This document shows, piece by piece, positions 1 to 33,556 of a stretch of 33,556 bases of DNA. The DNA lies in contig CAXHJY010001091.1 in NCBI GenBank assembly GCA_964016885.1, positions 1 to 33,556 of the forward strand, in the 5' to 3' direction. Numbering within the stretch: the stretch's first letter is position 1; each line of letters begins with the position of its first letter. The notes under the pieces are model-generated. The model made no database searches. It was not told the origin of the DNA and saw nothing but the letters and a program-made list of their open reading frames with translations. A program made the translations under genes and the position numbers. This stretch comes from Eledone cirrhosa. Its lineage: Eukaryota.

Positions 1-2717
<2,717 letters not shown>

Positions 2718-3328
2718 GTCAGGTCACCAGGTGGTGCTACTGGTATCATGTATCCCAGTGCAACCTGTGTCATGGTCGGGTCGTTGGCGACTAAACTGGC
2801 AACCCCACCAAGGTTTCTTGGTGAGGAGGGTGACTTTGGACATCCTGCGGGACTAAAAACAAAACCTGTCAAAGGGCAAAGGAGCTCTTAAGAGTCAATG
2901 GCCATCCAAAACCACCGGGAGAGATGACCCCTTAGCCTTTGTCAAGGCAGAATTCTAGGAGAAGGAAAACTCTGATATAACACCTGCAACCCTGATGGTA
3001 TCCAATGATGTTGACTTGTTCTTCTTTTTGGTAAATATCCTCTTGATTAAGAGAGTGGGACTGGCTTTGTGCAATGCCTTTGCTCACTATAAAAGCTTCA
3101 CGGCACAGGCATTGCTTTATATCTGGAGCTCTCTCTGCACTTGTCGACATATGGTACCATGGGCCCAGCACTATGTGTCAATAATTGTCACAAGTGTAGT
3201 GTTTGTACCAGAGTTTTCAAGTCGCTGGCTGGACTAAAGAGTCACACTCGTTCAGCACATCGGTAGGAGTTCTCCTACATGGATATAAAGTAGTGGCCGT
3301 ACTCGAAAAACGAGTTGGCAGCCGCCAT
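2718..3328 (+). mobile_element. Non-autonomous RTE-derived retroelement, full-length copy 1 (~610 bp)
   Basis: Repeated at 3794, 10555, 13777, 25601 and 26109. Has the RTE 5'UTR-like motif CTAGGAGAAGGAAAACTCTGA, an RTE-type C-terminal zinc finger [26 protein letters not shown] (3186-3266), a 3' stem-loop CTCG-AAAA(A)-CGAG and a (TA/TATG)n tail. No RT. Confidence 0.85.
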
Positions 3329-3745
3329 GTATGTATATATATATGTATGTATGTATATATATATGTATGTATATATATATGTATGTATATATATATGTAT
3401 GTATATATATATGTATGTATGTATGTATATATATATGTATATATATATGTATGTATGTATATATATATGTATGTATGTATATATATATGTATATATATAT
3501 GTATGTATGTATATATATATGTATGTATATATATATGTATATATATATGTATGTATGTATATATATATGTATGTATATATATATGTATATATATATGTAT
3601 GTATGTATATATATATGTATGTATATATATATGTATGTATATATATATGTATGTATATATATATGTATGTATGTATGTATATATATATATATATGTATGT
3701 ATATGTATATATGTATGTATGTATGGATGTATGTATATATATATG

Positions 3746-3777
<32 letters not shown>

Positions 3778-3793
3778 TGTATGTATATATATA
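3329..3793. repeat. (TATG/TA)n microsatellite spacer
   Basis: Direct sequence. Confidence 0.97.
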
Positions 3794-4403
3794 GTCAGGT
3801 CACCACTTGGTGCTACTGGTAACATGTATCCCAGTACAAGCTGTCTCATGGTCGGGTAGTTGGCGACTAAACTGGCAACCCCACCAAGGTTTCTTGGTGA
3901 GGAGGGTGACTTTGGACATCCTGCAGGAATAAAAACAAAACCTGTCAAAGGGAAAAGGAGCTCTTAAGAGTCAATGGCCATCCAAAATCACCGGGAGAGA
4001 TGACCCCTTAGCCTTTGTCAAGGCAGAATTCTAGGAGAAGGAAAACTCTGATATAACACCTGCAACTCTGATGGTATCCAATGATGTTGACTTGTTCTTC
4101 TTTTTGGTAAATATCATCTTGGTTAAGAGAGTGGGACTGGCTTTGTGCAGTGCCTTTGCTCACTATAAAAGCTTCACAGCACAGGCATTGCTTTATATCT
4201 GGAGATCTCTCTGCACTTGTCATCACATGTTACCATGGGCCCAACACTATGTGTCAATAATTGTCACAAGTGTAGTGTTTGTACCAGAGTTTTCAAGTCG
4301 CCCGCTGGACTAAAAAGCCACACGCGTTCAGCGCATCGGTAGGGGTTCTCCTACATGGATATAAAGTAGTGGCCTTCCTCGAAAACGAGTTGGCAGCCAC
4401 CAT
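3794..4403 (+). mobile_element. Non-autonomous RTE-derived retroelement, full-length copy 2
   Basis: Colinear with 2718-3328 with scattered substitutions; same GTCAGGTCAC start and GGCAGCC(A/G)CCAT end. Confidence 0.85.
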
Positions 4404-10554: not shown

Positions 10555-11012
10555 TCAAAAGGCAAAGGGGCTCTTAAGAGTCAATAGCCATCCAAAATCA
10601 CCGGGGAGATGACCCCTTAGCCTTTGTCAAGGCAGAATTCTAGGAGAAGGAAAACTCTGATATAACACCTGCAACCCTGATGGTATCCAATGATGTTGAA
10701 TTGTTCTTCTTTTTGGTAAATATCATCTTGGTTAAGAGAGTGGGACTGGCTTTGTGCAGTGCCTTTGCTCACTATAAAAGCTTCACAGCACAGGCATTGC
10801 TTTATATCTGGAGATCTCTCTGCACTTGTCGTCACATGGTACCATGGGCCCAGCACTATGTGTCAATAATTGTCACAAGTGTAGTGTTTGTACCAGAGTT
10901 CTCAAGTCGCTGGCTGGACTAAAAAGTCACACTCGTTCAGCGCATTGGTAGGGGTTCTCCTACATGGATATAAAGTAGTGGCCGTACTCGAAAACGAGTT
11001 GGCAGCCACCAT
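10555..11012 (+). mobile_element. Non-autonomous RTE-derived element, 5'-truncated copy 3
   Basis: Colinear with 2869-3328. Confidence 0.85.
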
Positions 11013-11181: not shown

Positions 11182-11780
11182 CGAAGTGGGTCAGAAAAGT
11201 TCCAGGACTGATGTCACAAAAGATTTATTTCAAACCCAAATTTCACACTAAGAGTTTTCTCCTTCAAAGTAATCCCCCTGGAGTCTAATGCACTTTTCCA
11301 TCCTTTTCGGCCACACTTGCATGCACTCCTGGAAGGATTCTTCCGGGATCCTCCGCAGTTCCATCGTCACGGCCTTTTTGATGTCGTCCACGTCTTCAAA
11401 ATGGGTCACCTTGATGACCCCTTGAGCATCCATGACTCATCACCGGTGATGACTGTCCCTAGCAAGTCTGGTTCGGTTTCAAGACACTCGAGGATGTCCT
11501 GGCACACTTGCATGCGTCGACCCTTCTGGTCATCGTTCAGCAGTTTTGGCACCATCTTCGCGCAGACTTTCCGCATGTCCAAATCTTCAGTAAGAATCTT
11601 CCAGACTCTGTCCCGATTCATGCCGAGCTCATTTGCTATCAGTCGAACAGTCAGCCGACGATCGCTACGCACCAACTGCTTGACGCGCTCAACGTTGACC
11701 TCAGTCCTGGTTGTTGAGGGCCTTCCGCTCCTGGGGTCATCTTCCATGTCCTCGCGTCATTCTTTAAACCTCTTGCACCA
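11182..11780 (-). mobile_element. Tc1/mariner transposon relic with internally deleted transposase
   Basis: Minus ORFs [11 protein letters not shown]...KMVPKLL...VITGDESW (HTH plus first catalytic D) joined to C-terminal HFEDVDDIKKAV...W.KRMEKCIRLQGDYFEG. The middle of the catalytic domain is missing. End: TA|CGAAGTGGGTCAGAAAAGTTCC. Confidence 0.92.
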
Positions 11781-11789
11781 CACAAAAAC

Positions 11790-11819
11790 ATATATATTTA
11801 TATATTTGTAAATATATAT

Positions 11820-11899
<80 letters not shown>

Positions 11900-11938
11900 T
11901 ATATATAATTATATACTTATATATATTATATATACATA

Positions 11939-11987
<49 letters not shown>

Positions 11988-12062
11988 TTATATATAGATA
12001 TATATAGATATATATTTAGATATATTTAGATATATATATTTATATATATCTATATATATATT

Positions 12063-12093
<31 letters not shown>

Positions 12094-12175
12094 ATTTATA
12101 TATATATATATATTTCGTTTCTGACCCTCCCAAAGTATAACAATATATATATATATTTTTATATATATATATATT

Positions 12176-12204
<29 letters not shown>
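11790..12204. repeat. (TA)n microsatellite
   Basis: Direct sequence. Confidence 0.95.
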
Positions 12205-12207
<3 letters not shown>

Positions 12208-12402
12208 GATAAATCTACCAAGAGTTTACGGTAGTGTCCAATCCGTATGGAGAACTCAATGTAGTCCGGATATCATGGAAAGAAGAGATGCAATGAAAAA
12301 TCACTTTCGGTGAAAGATAAACGAAATACAGAGTCAAGATAAAATATTAAAAAAATAATGAATAAAACAATGAAACAGTTCCTTATATTAAACAAAAAAA
12401 GT

Positions 12403-12555
12403 TCATTATTTAACGATCGTTTCTAGGATATATATGTGTTAGAATTGGCATGCATATTCAACAGATCTATGTACAAAATTATACAAAATTATACAAACTA
12501 TCAAGATTAAATATACATACCAAACACACATATATGCCGTCTTCAGAAATAATGA
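12403..12555 (-). ncRNA. Type I hammerhead ribozyme with very long stem II (minus copy)
   Basis: Stem I TCATTATTT/AAATAATGA (9 bp), core CTGAAGA, ~116-nt stem II domain, GAAA, palindromic stem III ACGATCGT, GUU triplet. The base of stem II is imperfect. Confidence 0.75.
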
Positions 12556-12703
12556 TTATTTCTGAAGACGGCATATATGTGTGTTTGGTATGTATATTTA
12601 ATCTTGATAGTTTGTATAATTTTGTATAATTTTGTACATAGATCTGTTGAATATGCATGCCAATTCTAACACATATATATCCTAGAAACGATCGTTAAAT
12701 AAT
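12555..12703 (+). ncRNA. Type I hammerhead ribozyme with very long stem II (plus copy)
   Basis: Stem I ATTATTT/AAATAAT, CTGAAGA at 12562-12568, GAAACGATCGTT at 12685-12696; predicted cut after 12696. Confidence 0.72.
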
Positions 12704-12885
12704 GAACTTTTTTTGTTTAATATAAGGAACTGTTTCATTGTTTTATTCATTATTTTTTTAATATTTTATATATATATATATATATATACATATTTATTTA
12801 TATATTTACATATATTTATATATTTATATATATTCATATATATATGTGTATATATTTATATATATATATATATATATTTATATTG

Positions 12886-12919
<34 letters not shown>

Positions 12920-12971
12920 ATATTTATATTGATATATACATATATATATTTATATATACATATATATATTT

Positions 12972-13297
12972 ATAACAGGTAGACATCATAAAAAGGTAAT
13001 TTATTCCGTGTACTTACAAGTGTTTCCACGGTGGTACTGCAGCCTAGTTCCGCTACGTAGCGGAACTAGGCTGCAGTACCACCGTGGAAACACTTGTAAG
13101 CACACGGAATAAATTACCTTTTTATGATGTCTACCTGTTATTATTCATTCTTTATATACACTCCGGAATACTGAAGGATCAGGAACTAAGTTTCTTGAAC
13201 AATTCTTCCATAACTCGTAGAGTAACCTCTTACCGTACGTCAACCATATCCAGTGTAGTAATTAACCATCACTACATCTTGGATAATCCTATACCTA
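12972..13297 (+). mobile_element. Fold-back insert with spacer-less 85-bp-arm palindrome carrying the 3' half of a hammerhead
   Basis: Palindrome 12972-13141, centre CTAC|GTAG, one mismatch. GAAAC-ACTT-GTA at 13087-13098 with GCGG/CCGT stem II. The CUGANGA box is absent. ~155-nt tail, then (TA)n. Confidence 0.6.
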
Positions 13298-13776
<479 letters not shown>

Positions 13777-19882: not shown

Positions 19883-20172
19883 ATAAAATGATACATGACA
19901 TACCCTGAGATGTTAGATGGTTAAATCTTAACCATCTAACATCTCAGGGTATGTCATGTATCATTTTATTTTATCTGATGAGGACGTACTGTTGAACTTG
20001 ATTCAGTACCTCTGAAATATGTATAATGAAATTTAATTGATCACAAGAATATCTATTTTGTTAATATTTGAATTAATATTAATAACTCTGGAAAATATTT
20101 ACTGTAGAGTGCTTCCAATCTACTGTAAAACTCATTCTTTGATGTACTCATGGAATTTTGTTTAACTCTTTA
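19883..20172 (+). mobile_element. Fold-back insert (PLE pLTR-like): 42-bp hairpin, hammerhead and tail
   Basis: Perfect inverted repeat 19883-19969 (3-nt loop), directly followed by an HHR and a ~140-nt tail; (TA)n flanks. Confidence 0.78.
19968..20032 (+). ncRNA. Type I hammerhead ribozyme, intact core
   Basis: Stem I ATTTTAT/ATGAAAT; CTGATGA at 19975-19981; stem II GGA-C-GTACTG/CAGTAC-C-TCT; GAAA; stem III ATA-TG-TAT; AUA triplet with predicted cut after 20025. Confidence 0.8.
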
Positions 20173-26108: not shown

Positions 26109-30977
<4,869 letters not shown>

Positions 30978-31737
30978 TCAGAGACTTGGGAGTAACCGTG
31001 GACAGCAACATAAGCTGGACCACGCATATAAGCAGCAAAGTTGACATGGCCCGCAGAATGTGTTCCTGGATCCTCAGAACCTTCCAGTCGAGAGATTCCC
31101 GCACCATTATCCTTCTCTTCTCTACTTTCGCCCGACCACACCTTGAATACTGTTGTCCACTGTGGTCTCCCCACACGAAACAAAGTATCATGAAACTTGA
31201 AGCTCCTCAAAGGGCAATCACGAAAAAGATAGATGGCATGTCAGACCTTGACTACTGGGGTCGATTGGAAAACCTGAAACTTTACTCACTCCAACGTCGC
31301 CGTGAGCGTTATATTATCTGCATGATGTGGAAAATGTTCCATCATCACTGCCCAAATGATGTTGGCATCGCCTTCAAGATACACCCAAGGCTTGGGCCCC
31401 GTGCTATCCGTCCCATTCAAAAATCTAAATCGCAACTCATAACAACAATACGCACAATTATTTCACCTCAATCGGCCCTGCTCTCTTCAACATCACACCA
31501 GGACACGTCAAAACAGAAACTGACCACACAAAATTCAAGAAGTCTTTGGACAAATTCCTCCAAGTAATCCGGACAAACCACCCACACCCGGATATGTCTC
31601 CGCAAACAGTAATTCTCTTCTCGAATGGGCCATGGTGCCCAAATCCTGAATTGAAAGACTTCGCCAGGTGGTGCTATTAAGTTAGACATGGCCTGGGCCA
31701 ATACTGGCCAAAACATTTCAAAGTTATTCAAAGTTAT
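30978..31737 (+). mobile_element. 5'-truncated CR1-clade LINE (RT thumb/C-terminus plus 3'UTR)
   Basis: [17 protein letters not shown]...[14 protein letters not shown]...[10 protein letters not shown]...[17 protein letters not shown]; one apparent frameshift near 31453; TTCAAAGTTA x2 tail. Confidence 0.9.

Positions 31738-33556
<1,819 letters not shown>

What the first reader, a model, noticed from the sequence alone, without database searches (positions are those of the whole stretch)
12339..12769. Hammerhead with a ~116-nt, G-U-rich stem II, present on both strands
Between CTGAAGA (12562) and GAAACGATCGTT (12685) lie two stacked helices. These are GG(C)ATATATGTGTGTT/AACACATATATATCC and TGGTATGTATATTTAAT/GTTGAATATGCATGCCA (17 contiguous pairs, 4 of them G-U). 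Deviations are mostly wobble pairs, which fits selection on RNA rather than a DNA inverted repeat. Typical PLE HHR stem II helices are only a few bp, so length-limited searches could miss this one. Arms with no visible mismatch imply a young insertion. Caveat: the stem II base (C opposite TA) is imperfect.
Basis: partly seen in the sequence, partly recalled or inferred. Interest (0 to 1): 0.8.

Follow-up and report, generated by a model that had tools for sequence, protein, structure and literature searches.

The report
Long-armed hammerhead in Penelope retrotransposon
This is a mirror-image pair of short copies from a very abundant jumping gene whose predicted self-cutting RNA motif has an arm several times longer than in described relatives; the copies keep the motif uncut, so the folded, uncut RNA is likely the form that gets copied into the genome.

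Summary
12339-12769 is a perfect 215-bp inverted duplication of the terminal repeat of a young Hydra-clade Penelope-like retrotransposon (14,282 exact hits of a core motif in this genome). Each arm has a complete type I hammerhead motif with a 116-nt stem II insert; published Hydra hammerheads have 3-7 bp. 'Both strands' is only the duplication. Sister subfamilies show compensatory changes in 4 of 7 core-proximal stem II pairs, none in 11 distal pairs. The 'imperfect' base (C.A, C.C) is conserved, not decay. G-U counts alone do not show selection (7 vs 3, p=0.34). In this family 45 of 100 copies start at the ribozyme's 5' edge and 2 at the cut site, so uncut RNA is likely the template; a second family shows no such peak. 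One public run of unrecorded kind has editing-like A-to-G changes in stem II (a lead only). Cleavage is untested. This scan noted long-stem-II Hydra hammerheads and ADAR imprints before on other DNA. New variant of a known kind; moderate interest.

The parts
12555..12769 (+). Right arm: short pLTR copy, from the 5' edge of the hammerhead to the (TA)n target, no tail
12339..12553 (-). Left arm: identical pLTR copy in inverted orientation
12205..12338 (-). 134-nt 'tail' of the left arm; in full elements it runs on into the 5' leader of the ORF; ends in two small predicted hairpins
12554..12554 (.). Single base at the head-to-head junction (G on +, C on -; C is the base found here in longer copies)
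12555..12561 (+). Stem I 5' strand (7 nt); its first base is the commonest 5' end of genomic copies, inferred transcription start
12562..12568 (+). Hammerhead core C3-A9 (CUGAAGA)
12569..12684 (+). 116-nt stem II insert: C.A (12569/12684), two pairs, C.C (12572/12681), helix A, bulge, helix B (12586-12602/12646-12662), distal weaker helices
12685..12696 (+). G12-A14, A15.1, 2-bp stem III with palindromic CGAUCG, GUU cleavage triplet; predicted cut after 12696
12697..12703 (+). Stem I 3' strand
12405..12553 (-). Mirror copy of the whole hammerhead motif; predicted cut between 12412 and 12411
11790..12204 (.). (TA)n microsatellite, left target flank
12767..12974 (.). (TA)n microsatellite, right target flank

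Best explanation
The stretch is a head-to-head pair of short copies of the terminal repeat (pLTR) of a young Hydra-clade Penelope-like retrotransposon, inserted in a (TA)n microsatellite, and each copy carries a type I hammerhead motif, predicted to self-cleave slowly, whose stem II is extended to a 116-nt hairpin. Shown: the layout, the parent element (813-aa RT plus GIY-YIG ORF, 502 nt behind the first base of the hammerhead), conserved pairing of the core-proximal helix, and that genomic copies of this family mostly begin at the hammerhead's 5' edge and rarely at the cut site. Inferred: the element's RNA likely starts at that edge, so the hammerhead is the first 149 nt of the transcript; the element's enzyme likely primes internally at the tail and copies uncut RNA back to its 5' end, twice and in opposite directions, which gives this palindrome. 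The long arm and an alternative fold that buries the core would keep cleavage slow, so that uncut template is available; the proximal helix is likely kept by selection for the ribozyme fold, while the distal arm is likely a tolerated extension with looser constraint.
For: Parent element and Hydra motifs: against PMC8557442 section 11. Tandem unit 6,643 nt, core 494 nt before the ATG. Core intact in at least 128 of 132 insertions at each position from C3 to U16.1 (partly by construction, since copies were collected with core anchors). Proximal stem II: 4 of 7 pairs change on both sides, 99.4% of cells paired; cells with double change 34, reached by 0 of 500 shuffles; slid controls 0-11. Variant pair types shared by several insertions keep pairing 13 of 20 times, private ones 5 of 17 (Fisher p = 0.049). 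C.C at the fourth in-register position in 10 of 19 motifs of different sequence and length (several are kin). 5' ends: 45 of 100 copies at -150..-132 from the cut, 20 exactly at -142, 2 at the cut site; sister subfamily 13 of 25 (after removing 2 copies interrupted by another element). Predicted probability of an open core in the monomer 0.027. In the anole Poseidon element, reverse transcription starts internally at the tail, uncut RNA is the main substrate, and no reads end at the cut site (PMC11167929).
Against: No cleavage or expression data. 0 of 12 pLTRs in front of an ORF start begin at the ribozyme edge, which a simple start-site model would predict for full-length copies. The second long-stem family in this genome has only 3 of 30 copies at its ribozyme edge, so the peak is not general. 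No excess of a cap-like G before the edge in solo copies (G 6, C 21 of 51). The distal helix shows 0 of 11 compensatory pairs, the pair-count measure is not above shuffles (96 of 500), and the 22 aligned sequences were hand-picked and related. Many of the 45 edge copies are the two arms of one insertion, so they are not independent. A C.A mismatch at 10.1-11.1 departs from the conserved G-C pair (PMC4209133; PMC3088659). Two-strand folding paired two monomers through the distal arms, not through the stem III palindrome.
Confidence: 0.65

Rival explanations
1. The long arm is an ADAR substrate with a role: A-to-I editing in stem II and the core shifts the RNA between the buried-core fold and the active fold, and some edits become fixed on retrotransposition, which is why the stem is rich in G-U pairs.
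For: In run X4, 8 of the 23 listed difference rows are at 3-41% while under 0.05% in run X1, and all 8 are A-to-G on one strand; 6 are on the ribozyme strand, at 12601, 12663, 12675, 12677, 12684 and 12688. A-to-G at 12684 raises the predicted open-core share from 0.027 to 0.19. By my reading, 9 of the 10 stem II pairs that vary between Watson-Crick and G-U in several insertions are A/G variants. Earlier scan notes report ADAR imprints in other Penelope copies of this genome (unchecked here).
Against: The kind of run X4 is not on record and it is a different sample from X1; no splice joint proved it to be RNA. The change at A15.1 (12688) should harm the core. Thousands of inverted dimers form long double strands that would be edited regardless of function. 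No hyper-edited copy among 188 fetched copies of this family (at most 4 A-to-G). Selection for pairing in an A-U-rich helix also yields mostly A-to-G.
Confidence: 0.15
2. The extension beyond the first helix is neutral: simple-repeat slippage and fold-back copying by the reverse transcriptase lengthened and homogenised the arm, and the ribozyme tolerates it because stem II is open-ended.
For: The arm is built of (AU)n/(GU)n-like runs and holds a 10-nt tandem duplication. Insert length varies from 18 to 116 nt across families in this genome and from 97 to 116 nt within this one. Other Hydra families here spread with 26-27-nt inserts. No compensatory pair in the distal helix.
Against: Fold-back homogenisation should erase the C.C and C.A mismatches and the G-U pairs, which persist. 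The G+C-rich subfamily F1d recodes helix A without simple repeats yet keeps a 102-103-nt insert and the core of helix B. A second family with an unrelated sequence has an 85-nt insert.
Confidence: 0.3
3. The hammerhead sits at the head of the mRNA to start translation: cutting removes the cap-proximal hairpin and its upstream AUGs and licenses cap-independent translation of the ORF, while uncut RNA serves as template.
For: The 502-nt leader has 10 upstream AUGs, 4 before the cut. Type I hammerhead cleavage in viral 5' UTRs is needed for cap-independent translation (PMC13725137, passages).
Against: No data for this element; 6 upstream AUGs remain after the cut; an intron in the leader was not excluded (one search showed no informative joint).
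Confidence: 0.15
4. The motif is catalytically dead and persists as a promoter or enzyme-binding structure; the 5'-end peak comes from template switching at the A/T-rich stem I strand rather than from a transcription start.
For: Copies are almost never cut off at the cleavage site (2 of 100); the predicted ground state buries the core; some junctions show fold-back through stem I (L024).
Against: All catalytic positions, stem I (one compensatory pair) and the palindromic stem III are kept across subfamilies whose stem II is recoded; H17 varies only between U and A (98 and 34 insertions), both cleavable by the NUH rule (recalled). Template switching should favour the much stronger stem II or other A/T runs, yet 10 of 100 copies end there.
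Confidence: 0.12

Closest known systems
Hydra clade of C-terminal EN+ Penelope-like elements and their hammerheads (Craig et al. 2021, PMC8557442; section 11, passages, Files S1-S2 and part of the sequence files read)
   Same: RWx, DKT, CxCX5C linker, CxxC and CxH motifs, no GxKF/Y, (TA)n target, pLTR hammerhead, inverted 5'-truncated copies, tail; frequent mismatch at the stem II base (T.T in 14 of 26 File S2 Hydra/Repbase rows, counted by eye) and frequent U at H17 (10 of 26).
   Different: Published stem II is 3-7 bp with a 3-10-nt loop in all 26 rows; here the insert is 116 nt with about 35 pairs in two main helices. The unit is about 6.6 kb against under 3 kb typical; the tail is 134 nt against 30-40 nt given for PLEs in general.
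Minimal type I PLE hammerheads (Cervera and de la Pena 2014, PMC4209133; parts 1-2 of 4 read; Lunse et al. 2017 seen only through the review PMC6765202)
   Same: Type I topology in the pLTR, short stem III with a palindromic loop, expected low monomer activity, copies on opposite strands 100-700 bp apart.
   Different: There 'larger than usual' helix II means 7-8 bp with a conserved G10.1-C11.1 pair; here the base is C.A and the helix is several times longer.
Poseidon element of Anolis carolinensis (PMC11167929; passages read)
   Same: Hammerhead upstream of the tail; uncut RNA as template; internal start of reverse transcription explains tail-bearing and tail-less ends.
   Different: Other clade; its ORF starts inside stem II, whereas here the ATG is 494 nt downstream of the core.
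Animal non-LTR retrozymes (PMC7229834, section 15 and passages; bioRxiv 10.64898/2026.07.22.740005, parts 1-2 of 5)
   Same: Type I hammerhead with weak helix III; a U.U mismatch at the helix II base is compatible with cleavage in the axolotl motif.
   Different: Retrozymes are short non-coding tandem repeats processed into circles; this is the pLTR of a protein-coding element, and its short copies are inverted pairs, not head-to-tail arrays.

Membership tests
Hydra-clade Penelope-like element | Single ORF with RT and C-terminal GIY-YIG endonuclease | tested here: met
   813-aa ORF, YRDD at 346, SYIG at 706. Pfam gave no hit on two pieces of another copy, so domains are called from motifs.
Hydra-clade Penelope-like element | RWK-type motif, DKT instead of DKG, no GxKF/Y | tested here: met
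   RRVRWR at 34 (RWR; the neighbouring family has RWK), DKT at 115, no GxKF/Y (definitions)
Hydra-clade Penelope-like element | CxCX5C linker, CxxC and CxH in the endonuclease | tested here: met
   CNCRNKANC at 673, CRLC at 771, CNH at 799
Hydra-clade Penelope-like element | Insertion into (TA)n; pLTR with inverted truncated copies and tail | tested here: met
Hydra-clade Penelope-like element | Placement inside the clade on an RT tree | not tested
   Reference proteins could be read only in the paper's supplement; compared by eye with Hydra-1_Obim
Neptune-clade Penelope-like element | CX2-5CxxC linker | tested here: not met
   The linker is CxCX5C; my first label 'Neptune' was dropped
Type I hammerhead ribozyme | Core CUGANGA, GAAA and NUH | tested here: met
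Type I hammerhead ribozyme | Stems I, II and III around the core | tested here: met
   Stem I 7 bp with one compensatory pair, proximal stem II with four, stem III 2 bp invariant; the unconstrained minimum-energy fold buries the core
Type I hammerhead ribozyme | R10.1-Y11.1 (usually G-C) pair at the stem II base | tested here: not met
   C.A in register in 130 of 132 insertions; published Hydra motifs also often lack this pair; U.U there is compatible with activity
Type I hammerhead ribozyme | Match to an Rfam hammerhead model | tested here: not met
   0 at gathering score in the window; no hammerhead family among 143 matches at E up to 10 in 5 loci, including short-stem relatives
Type I hammerhead ribozyme | Site-specific self-cleavage | not testable with these tools
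   needs an in vitro assay
Non-LTR retrozyme | Non-coding head-to-tail repeat of 150-1000 nt with one hammerhead per unit | tested here: not met
   The tandem unit is 6,643 nt and codes for RT; short copies are inverted pairs

The most novel reading that the evidence does not exclude
The long stem II turns the hammerhead into an editing-controlled switch at the very 5' end of the retrotransposon RNA: unedited RNA folds with the core buried and serves as template, while ADAR editing at the conserved C.A site opens the core, allows cutting and commits the RNA to translation or decay, and edits that slip into the template are written back as the stem's G-U pairs.
Probability: 0.1. Interest if true: 0.8.

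Novelty: new variant of a known kind. Interest (0 to 1): 0.45.

Why it matters
What hammerheads do in Penelope-like elements is an open question (PMC8557442). This family offers a natural series for testing it: one genome holds Hydra-linked motifs with 26, 27, 60, 85 and 97-116-nt stem II inserts, thousands of near-identical copies and intact ORFs. The copy ends suggest that uncut RNA is the template in vivo, which matches the one in vitro study. Hammerheads of this size fall outside published short-spacer searches, so counts of genomic ribozymes may be too low. If editing acts on the arm, it would link host RNA editing to control of a ribozyme.

Tried and rejected
Rfam scans found no hammerhead. 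Pfam found nothing on two ORF pieces. The homolog search could not be made; the representative-protein search gave 13,850 hits at E up to 0.001, and the ten best carry no useful names. No RNA holder was listed among public runs; this says nothing on expression. The second read-laying did not show whether run X4 is RNA: A-to-G places 14 against 7 and T-to-C 11 against 10, rows cut, no splice joint. 'Neptune' was rejected for 'Hydra'. 5' ends at the cleavage site as a sign of in vivo cutting: 2 of 100, rejected. A cap-derived G at the junction: not seen. A general start-site peak: not seen in the second family. Hyper-edited genomic copies of this family: none in 188. Dimer activation through the stem III palindrome: two-strand folding gave no support and is uninformative. 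The idea that Naiads seem to lack hammerheads because of long stem II: one 'half-core' consensus read by eye (Naiad_Ovul) shows no type I long-stem motif; not pursued. A downstream-promoter-like AGACGT at +28 is present in subfamily F1d but not in the window's subfamily (by eye); not counted as evidence. Lunse et al. 2017 is not held. Literature searches that found no report of such a stem II; the library lacks most subscription papers, and supplements of PMC4209133 and the bioRxiv preprint were not seen and may list long-stem cases.

Full report
Observation. The stretch 12339-12769 is a perfect inverted repeat of 215 bp per arm about G12554. Each arm reads, 5' to 3': a 7-nt stem I strand, CUGAAGA, a 116-nt insert, GAAA, a 2-bp stem III with a palindromic loop, GUU and the second stem I strand. 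The motif folds at -43.9 kcal/mol (z = -5.49; 0 of 200 shuffles); the insert is far more stable on this strand than on its complement (-42.4 against -20.8). The 17-pair helix with 4 G-U is as described. A long-insert descriptor hits twice in the 18.8-kb non-microsatellite part of the window and in 0 of 100 resampled versions. The left arm runs on for 134 nt to 12205, and both ends abut (TA)n.

Identity. The arm is a high-copy repeat: 43 of 48 listed matches are identical over 211 nt (40 of 520 candidates scored), and a 19-nt motif from the 3' half of the core occurs 14,282 times, control 0. Longer copies lead to an ORF of 813 aa; an RT piece finds 139 scored matches at 99-100% identity, many in 830-aa open frames and some in arrays. 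In one array the unit is 6,643 nt and the core lies 494 nt before the ATG. The protein has RRVRWR, DKT, YRDD, CxCX5C, SYIG, CxxC and CxH and lacks GxKF/Y, the marks of the Hydra clade (PMC8557442 section 11); it resembles Hydra-1_Obim by eye. No tree was built. The host is likely a cephalopod (inferred from the repeat landscape and earlier scan notes; not tested). 'Both strands' is thus the inverted truncated copy typical of these elements.

How unusual is stem II? In File S2 of PMC8557442 all 26 Hydra and Repbase rows have 3-7 bp and a 3-10-nt loop. PMC4209133-8 bp larger than usual, and PMC13725137 bp long. One non-canonical plant case has about 54 nt. In this genome my descriptor found a graded series: 18, 26-27, 30-36, 49-55, 60-62, 79, 85 and 97-116 nt. 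Motifs tied to Hydra ORFs by position have 26, 26, 27, 60-61, 85 and 97-116 nt. The window's motif is the longest intact one seen. Seven searches found no paper on such a stem, within the library's limits. Rfam misses long and short relatives alike; the core search of PMC8557442 used 7-17-nt spacers and would miss it. This scan has noted long-stem-II Hydra hammerheads before, in this and another genome.

Is the pairing selected? A loose-end motif led to a sister subfamily with 2,736 exact hits, and an unbiased core search to a G+C-rich one, F1d. On 22 hand-picked sequences, 4 of 7 proximal stem II pairs and 1 of 7 stem I pairs change on both sides; 34 such cells are reached by 0 of 500 shuffles, slid controls give 0-11; the number of such pairs is not above shuffles (96 of 500); the distal helix has 0 of 11 and varies only by wobble or loss. 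Over 169 copies in 132 insertions (F1d left out), shared variant pair types keep pairing in 13 of 20 cases and private ones in 5 of 17 (p = 0.049), but G-U against A-C is only 7 to 3 (p = 0.34). The samples were collected with exact or near-exact anchors, which inflates conservation at those anchors. Read in register, the stem II base is C.A, a pair that occurs as G-U, A-U and G-C, a G-C pair, then C.C; C.C is kept in 132 of 132 insertions and appears at the same position in 10 of 19 motifs of different sequence (several are kin). Fold-back homogenisation would have erased it. So the proximal helix and its mismatches look constrained, the distal arm less clearly.

Where copies begin. Among the first 100 hits on contig C1 of a motif 3' of the cut (5,535 hits), 45 start at -150..-132 from the cut, 20 of them exactly at the first base of stem I; 2 start at the cut site, 10 inside stem II or the core, 9 at -259..-151, 31 extend 260 nt or more, 3 start after +4. 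Many are two arms of one insertion. The sister subfamily gives 13 of 25 (15 scored, 2 removed as interrupted by another element). The edge has a C/A step in an initiator-like context (consensus recalled), and C precedes the edge in 21 of 51 solo copies. Against generality: 0 of 12 pLTRs before an ORF start at the edge, and 3 of 30 in the second family. An internal pLTR promoter is shown for Drosophila Penelope (PMC2377424, passages).

Mechanism. Shown: layout, parent, conserved proximal pairing, copy ends. From the literature: PLE hammerheads cleave poorly and mainly as dimers; the anole element primes internally at the tail and uses uncut RNA. Inferred: transcription starts at the ribozyme's first base; the enzyme primes at the 5'-proximal tail or at the nearer site 134 nt upstream and copies uncut RNA to its end; two such products join head to head in a (TA)n target. 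The predicted ground state pairs C3-U4 and the stem I strand with the UAGAAA segment, leaving the core open in 2.7% of the ensemble, which would keep cleavage slow. I put 0.65 on this picture. Whether the distal arm has a role is open (neutral extension 0.3).

Editing lead. In run X4, 8 of 23 listed difference rows are at 3-41% but under 0.05% in run X1; all are A-to-G on one strand, six on the ribozyme strand (12601, 12663, 12675, 12677, 12684, 12688). This looks like A-to-I editing, but the run's kind is unrecorded, the sample differs, and one search did not settle it. The change at 12684 raises the predicted open-core share to 0.19; that at 12688 hits A15.1. No hyper-edited copy turned up among 188. 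Earlier notes describe ADAR imprints in other Penelope copies here; I did not check them. A translation role is a further possibility: the 502-nt leader has 10 upstream AUGs, and hammerhead cleavage drives cap-independent translation in fungal viruses.

Verdict. Real, and a new variant of a known kind: a Hydra-clade pLTR hammerhead motif with a much longer stem II than described, a conserved mismatch pattern at its base, and genomic evidence that uncut RNA is what gets inserted. Catalysis, start site and editing are untested. Interest 0.45.

Noticed in passing
window 12972-13300: Truncated, folded-back pLTR of a second Hydra family (centre 13056/13057); its full copies carry a hammerhead motif with an 85-nt stem II insert of unrelated sequence; 2,256 exact motif hits.
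   Followed up: partly
window 19968-20032 (+): Another type I hammerhead motif, 32-nt insert, with the same C.C at the fourth stem II position in its relatives.
   Followed up: partly
L313-L342: Subfamily F1d: G+C-rich recoded helix A, 102-103-nt insert, fetched loci mostly head-to-head pairs starting at the ribozyme edge, no ORF linked so far; AGACGT at +28 from the edge resembles a downstream promoter element.
   Followed up: partly
window 12205-12240 (-): The tail ends in two small predicted hairpins, the last one ending at the final base of the tail; earlier notes propose such hairpins mark the priming site.
   Followed up: partly
L113-L142: A very young Hydra family with 714-aa open frames whose hammerhead motif has G at position 17, outside the NUH rule, while older relatives have A.
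   Followed up: no
L032:5191-8750; L031:321-6155: The element's 3' region of about 3.6-3.7 kb is largely made of microsatellite-like sequence that is copied along with the element.
   Followed up: no
window 11406-11756 (-) and repeats near 2337-4176, 10555-10785, 26109-26336: Mariner-like transposase fragment and related repeat ends (label from recalled motifs).
   Followed up: no
window 30977-32284: 3' part of a LINE-type RT element, 88% like an intact copy in L031.
   Followed up: no
run X1 record 5: One low-depth contig with 28 differences in 210 nt that shares several of the A-to-G sites; possibly an edited copy fixed in DNA, sequence not visible.
   Followed up: no
G000 C1, one search list: Many core hits come as inverted pairs 270-310 bp apart; if transcribed through, each is a perfect hairpin of about 430 nt, a likely source of edited or small RNAs.
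   Followed up: no
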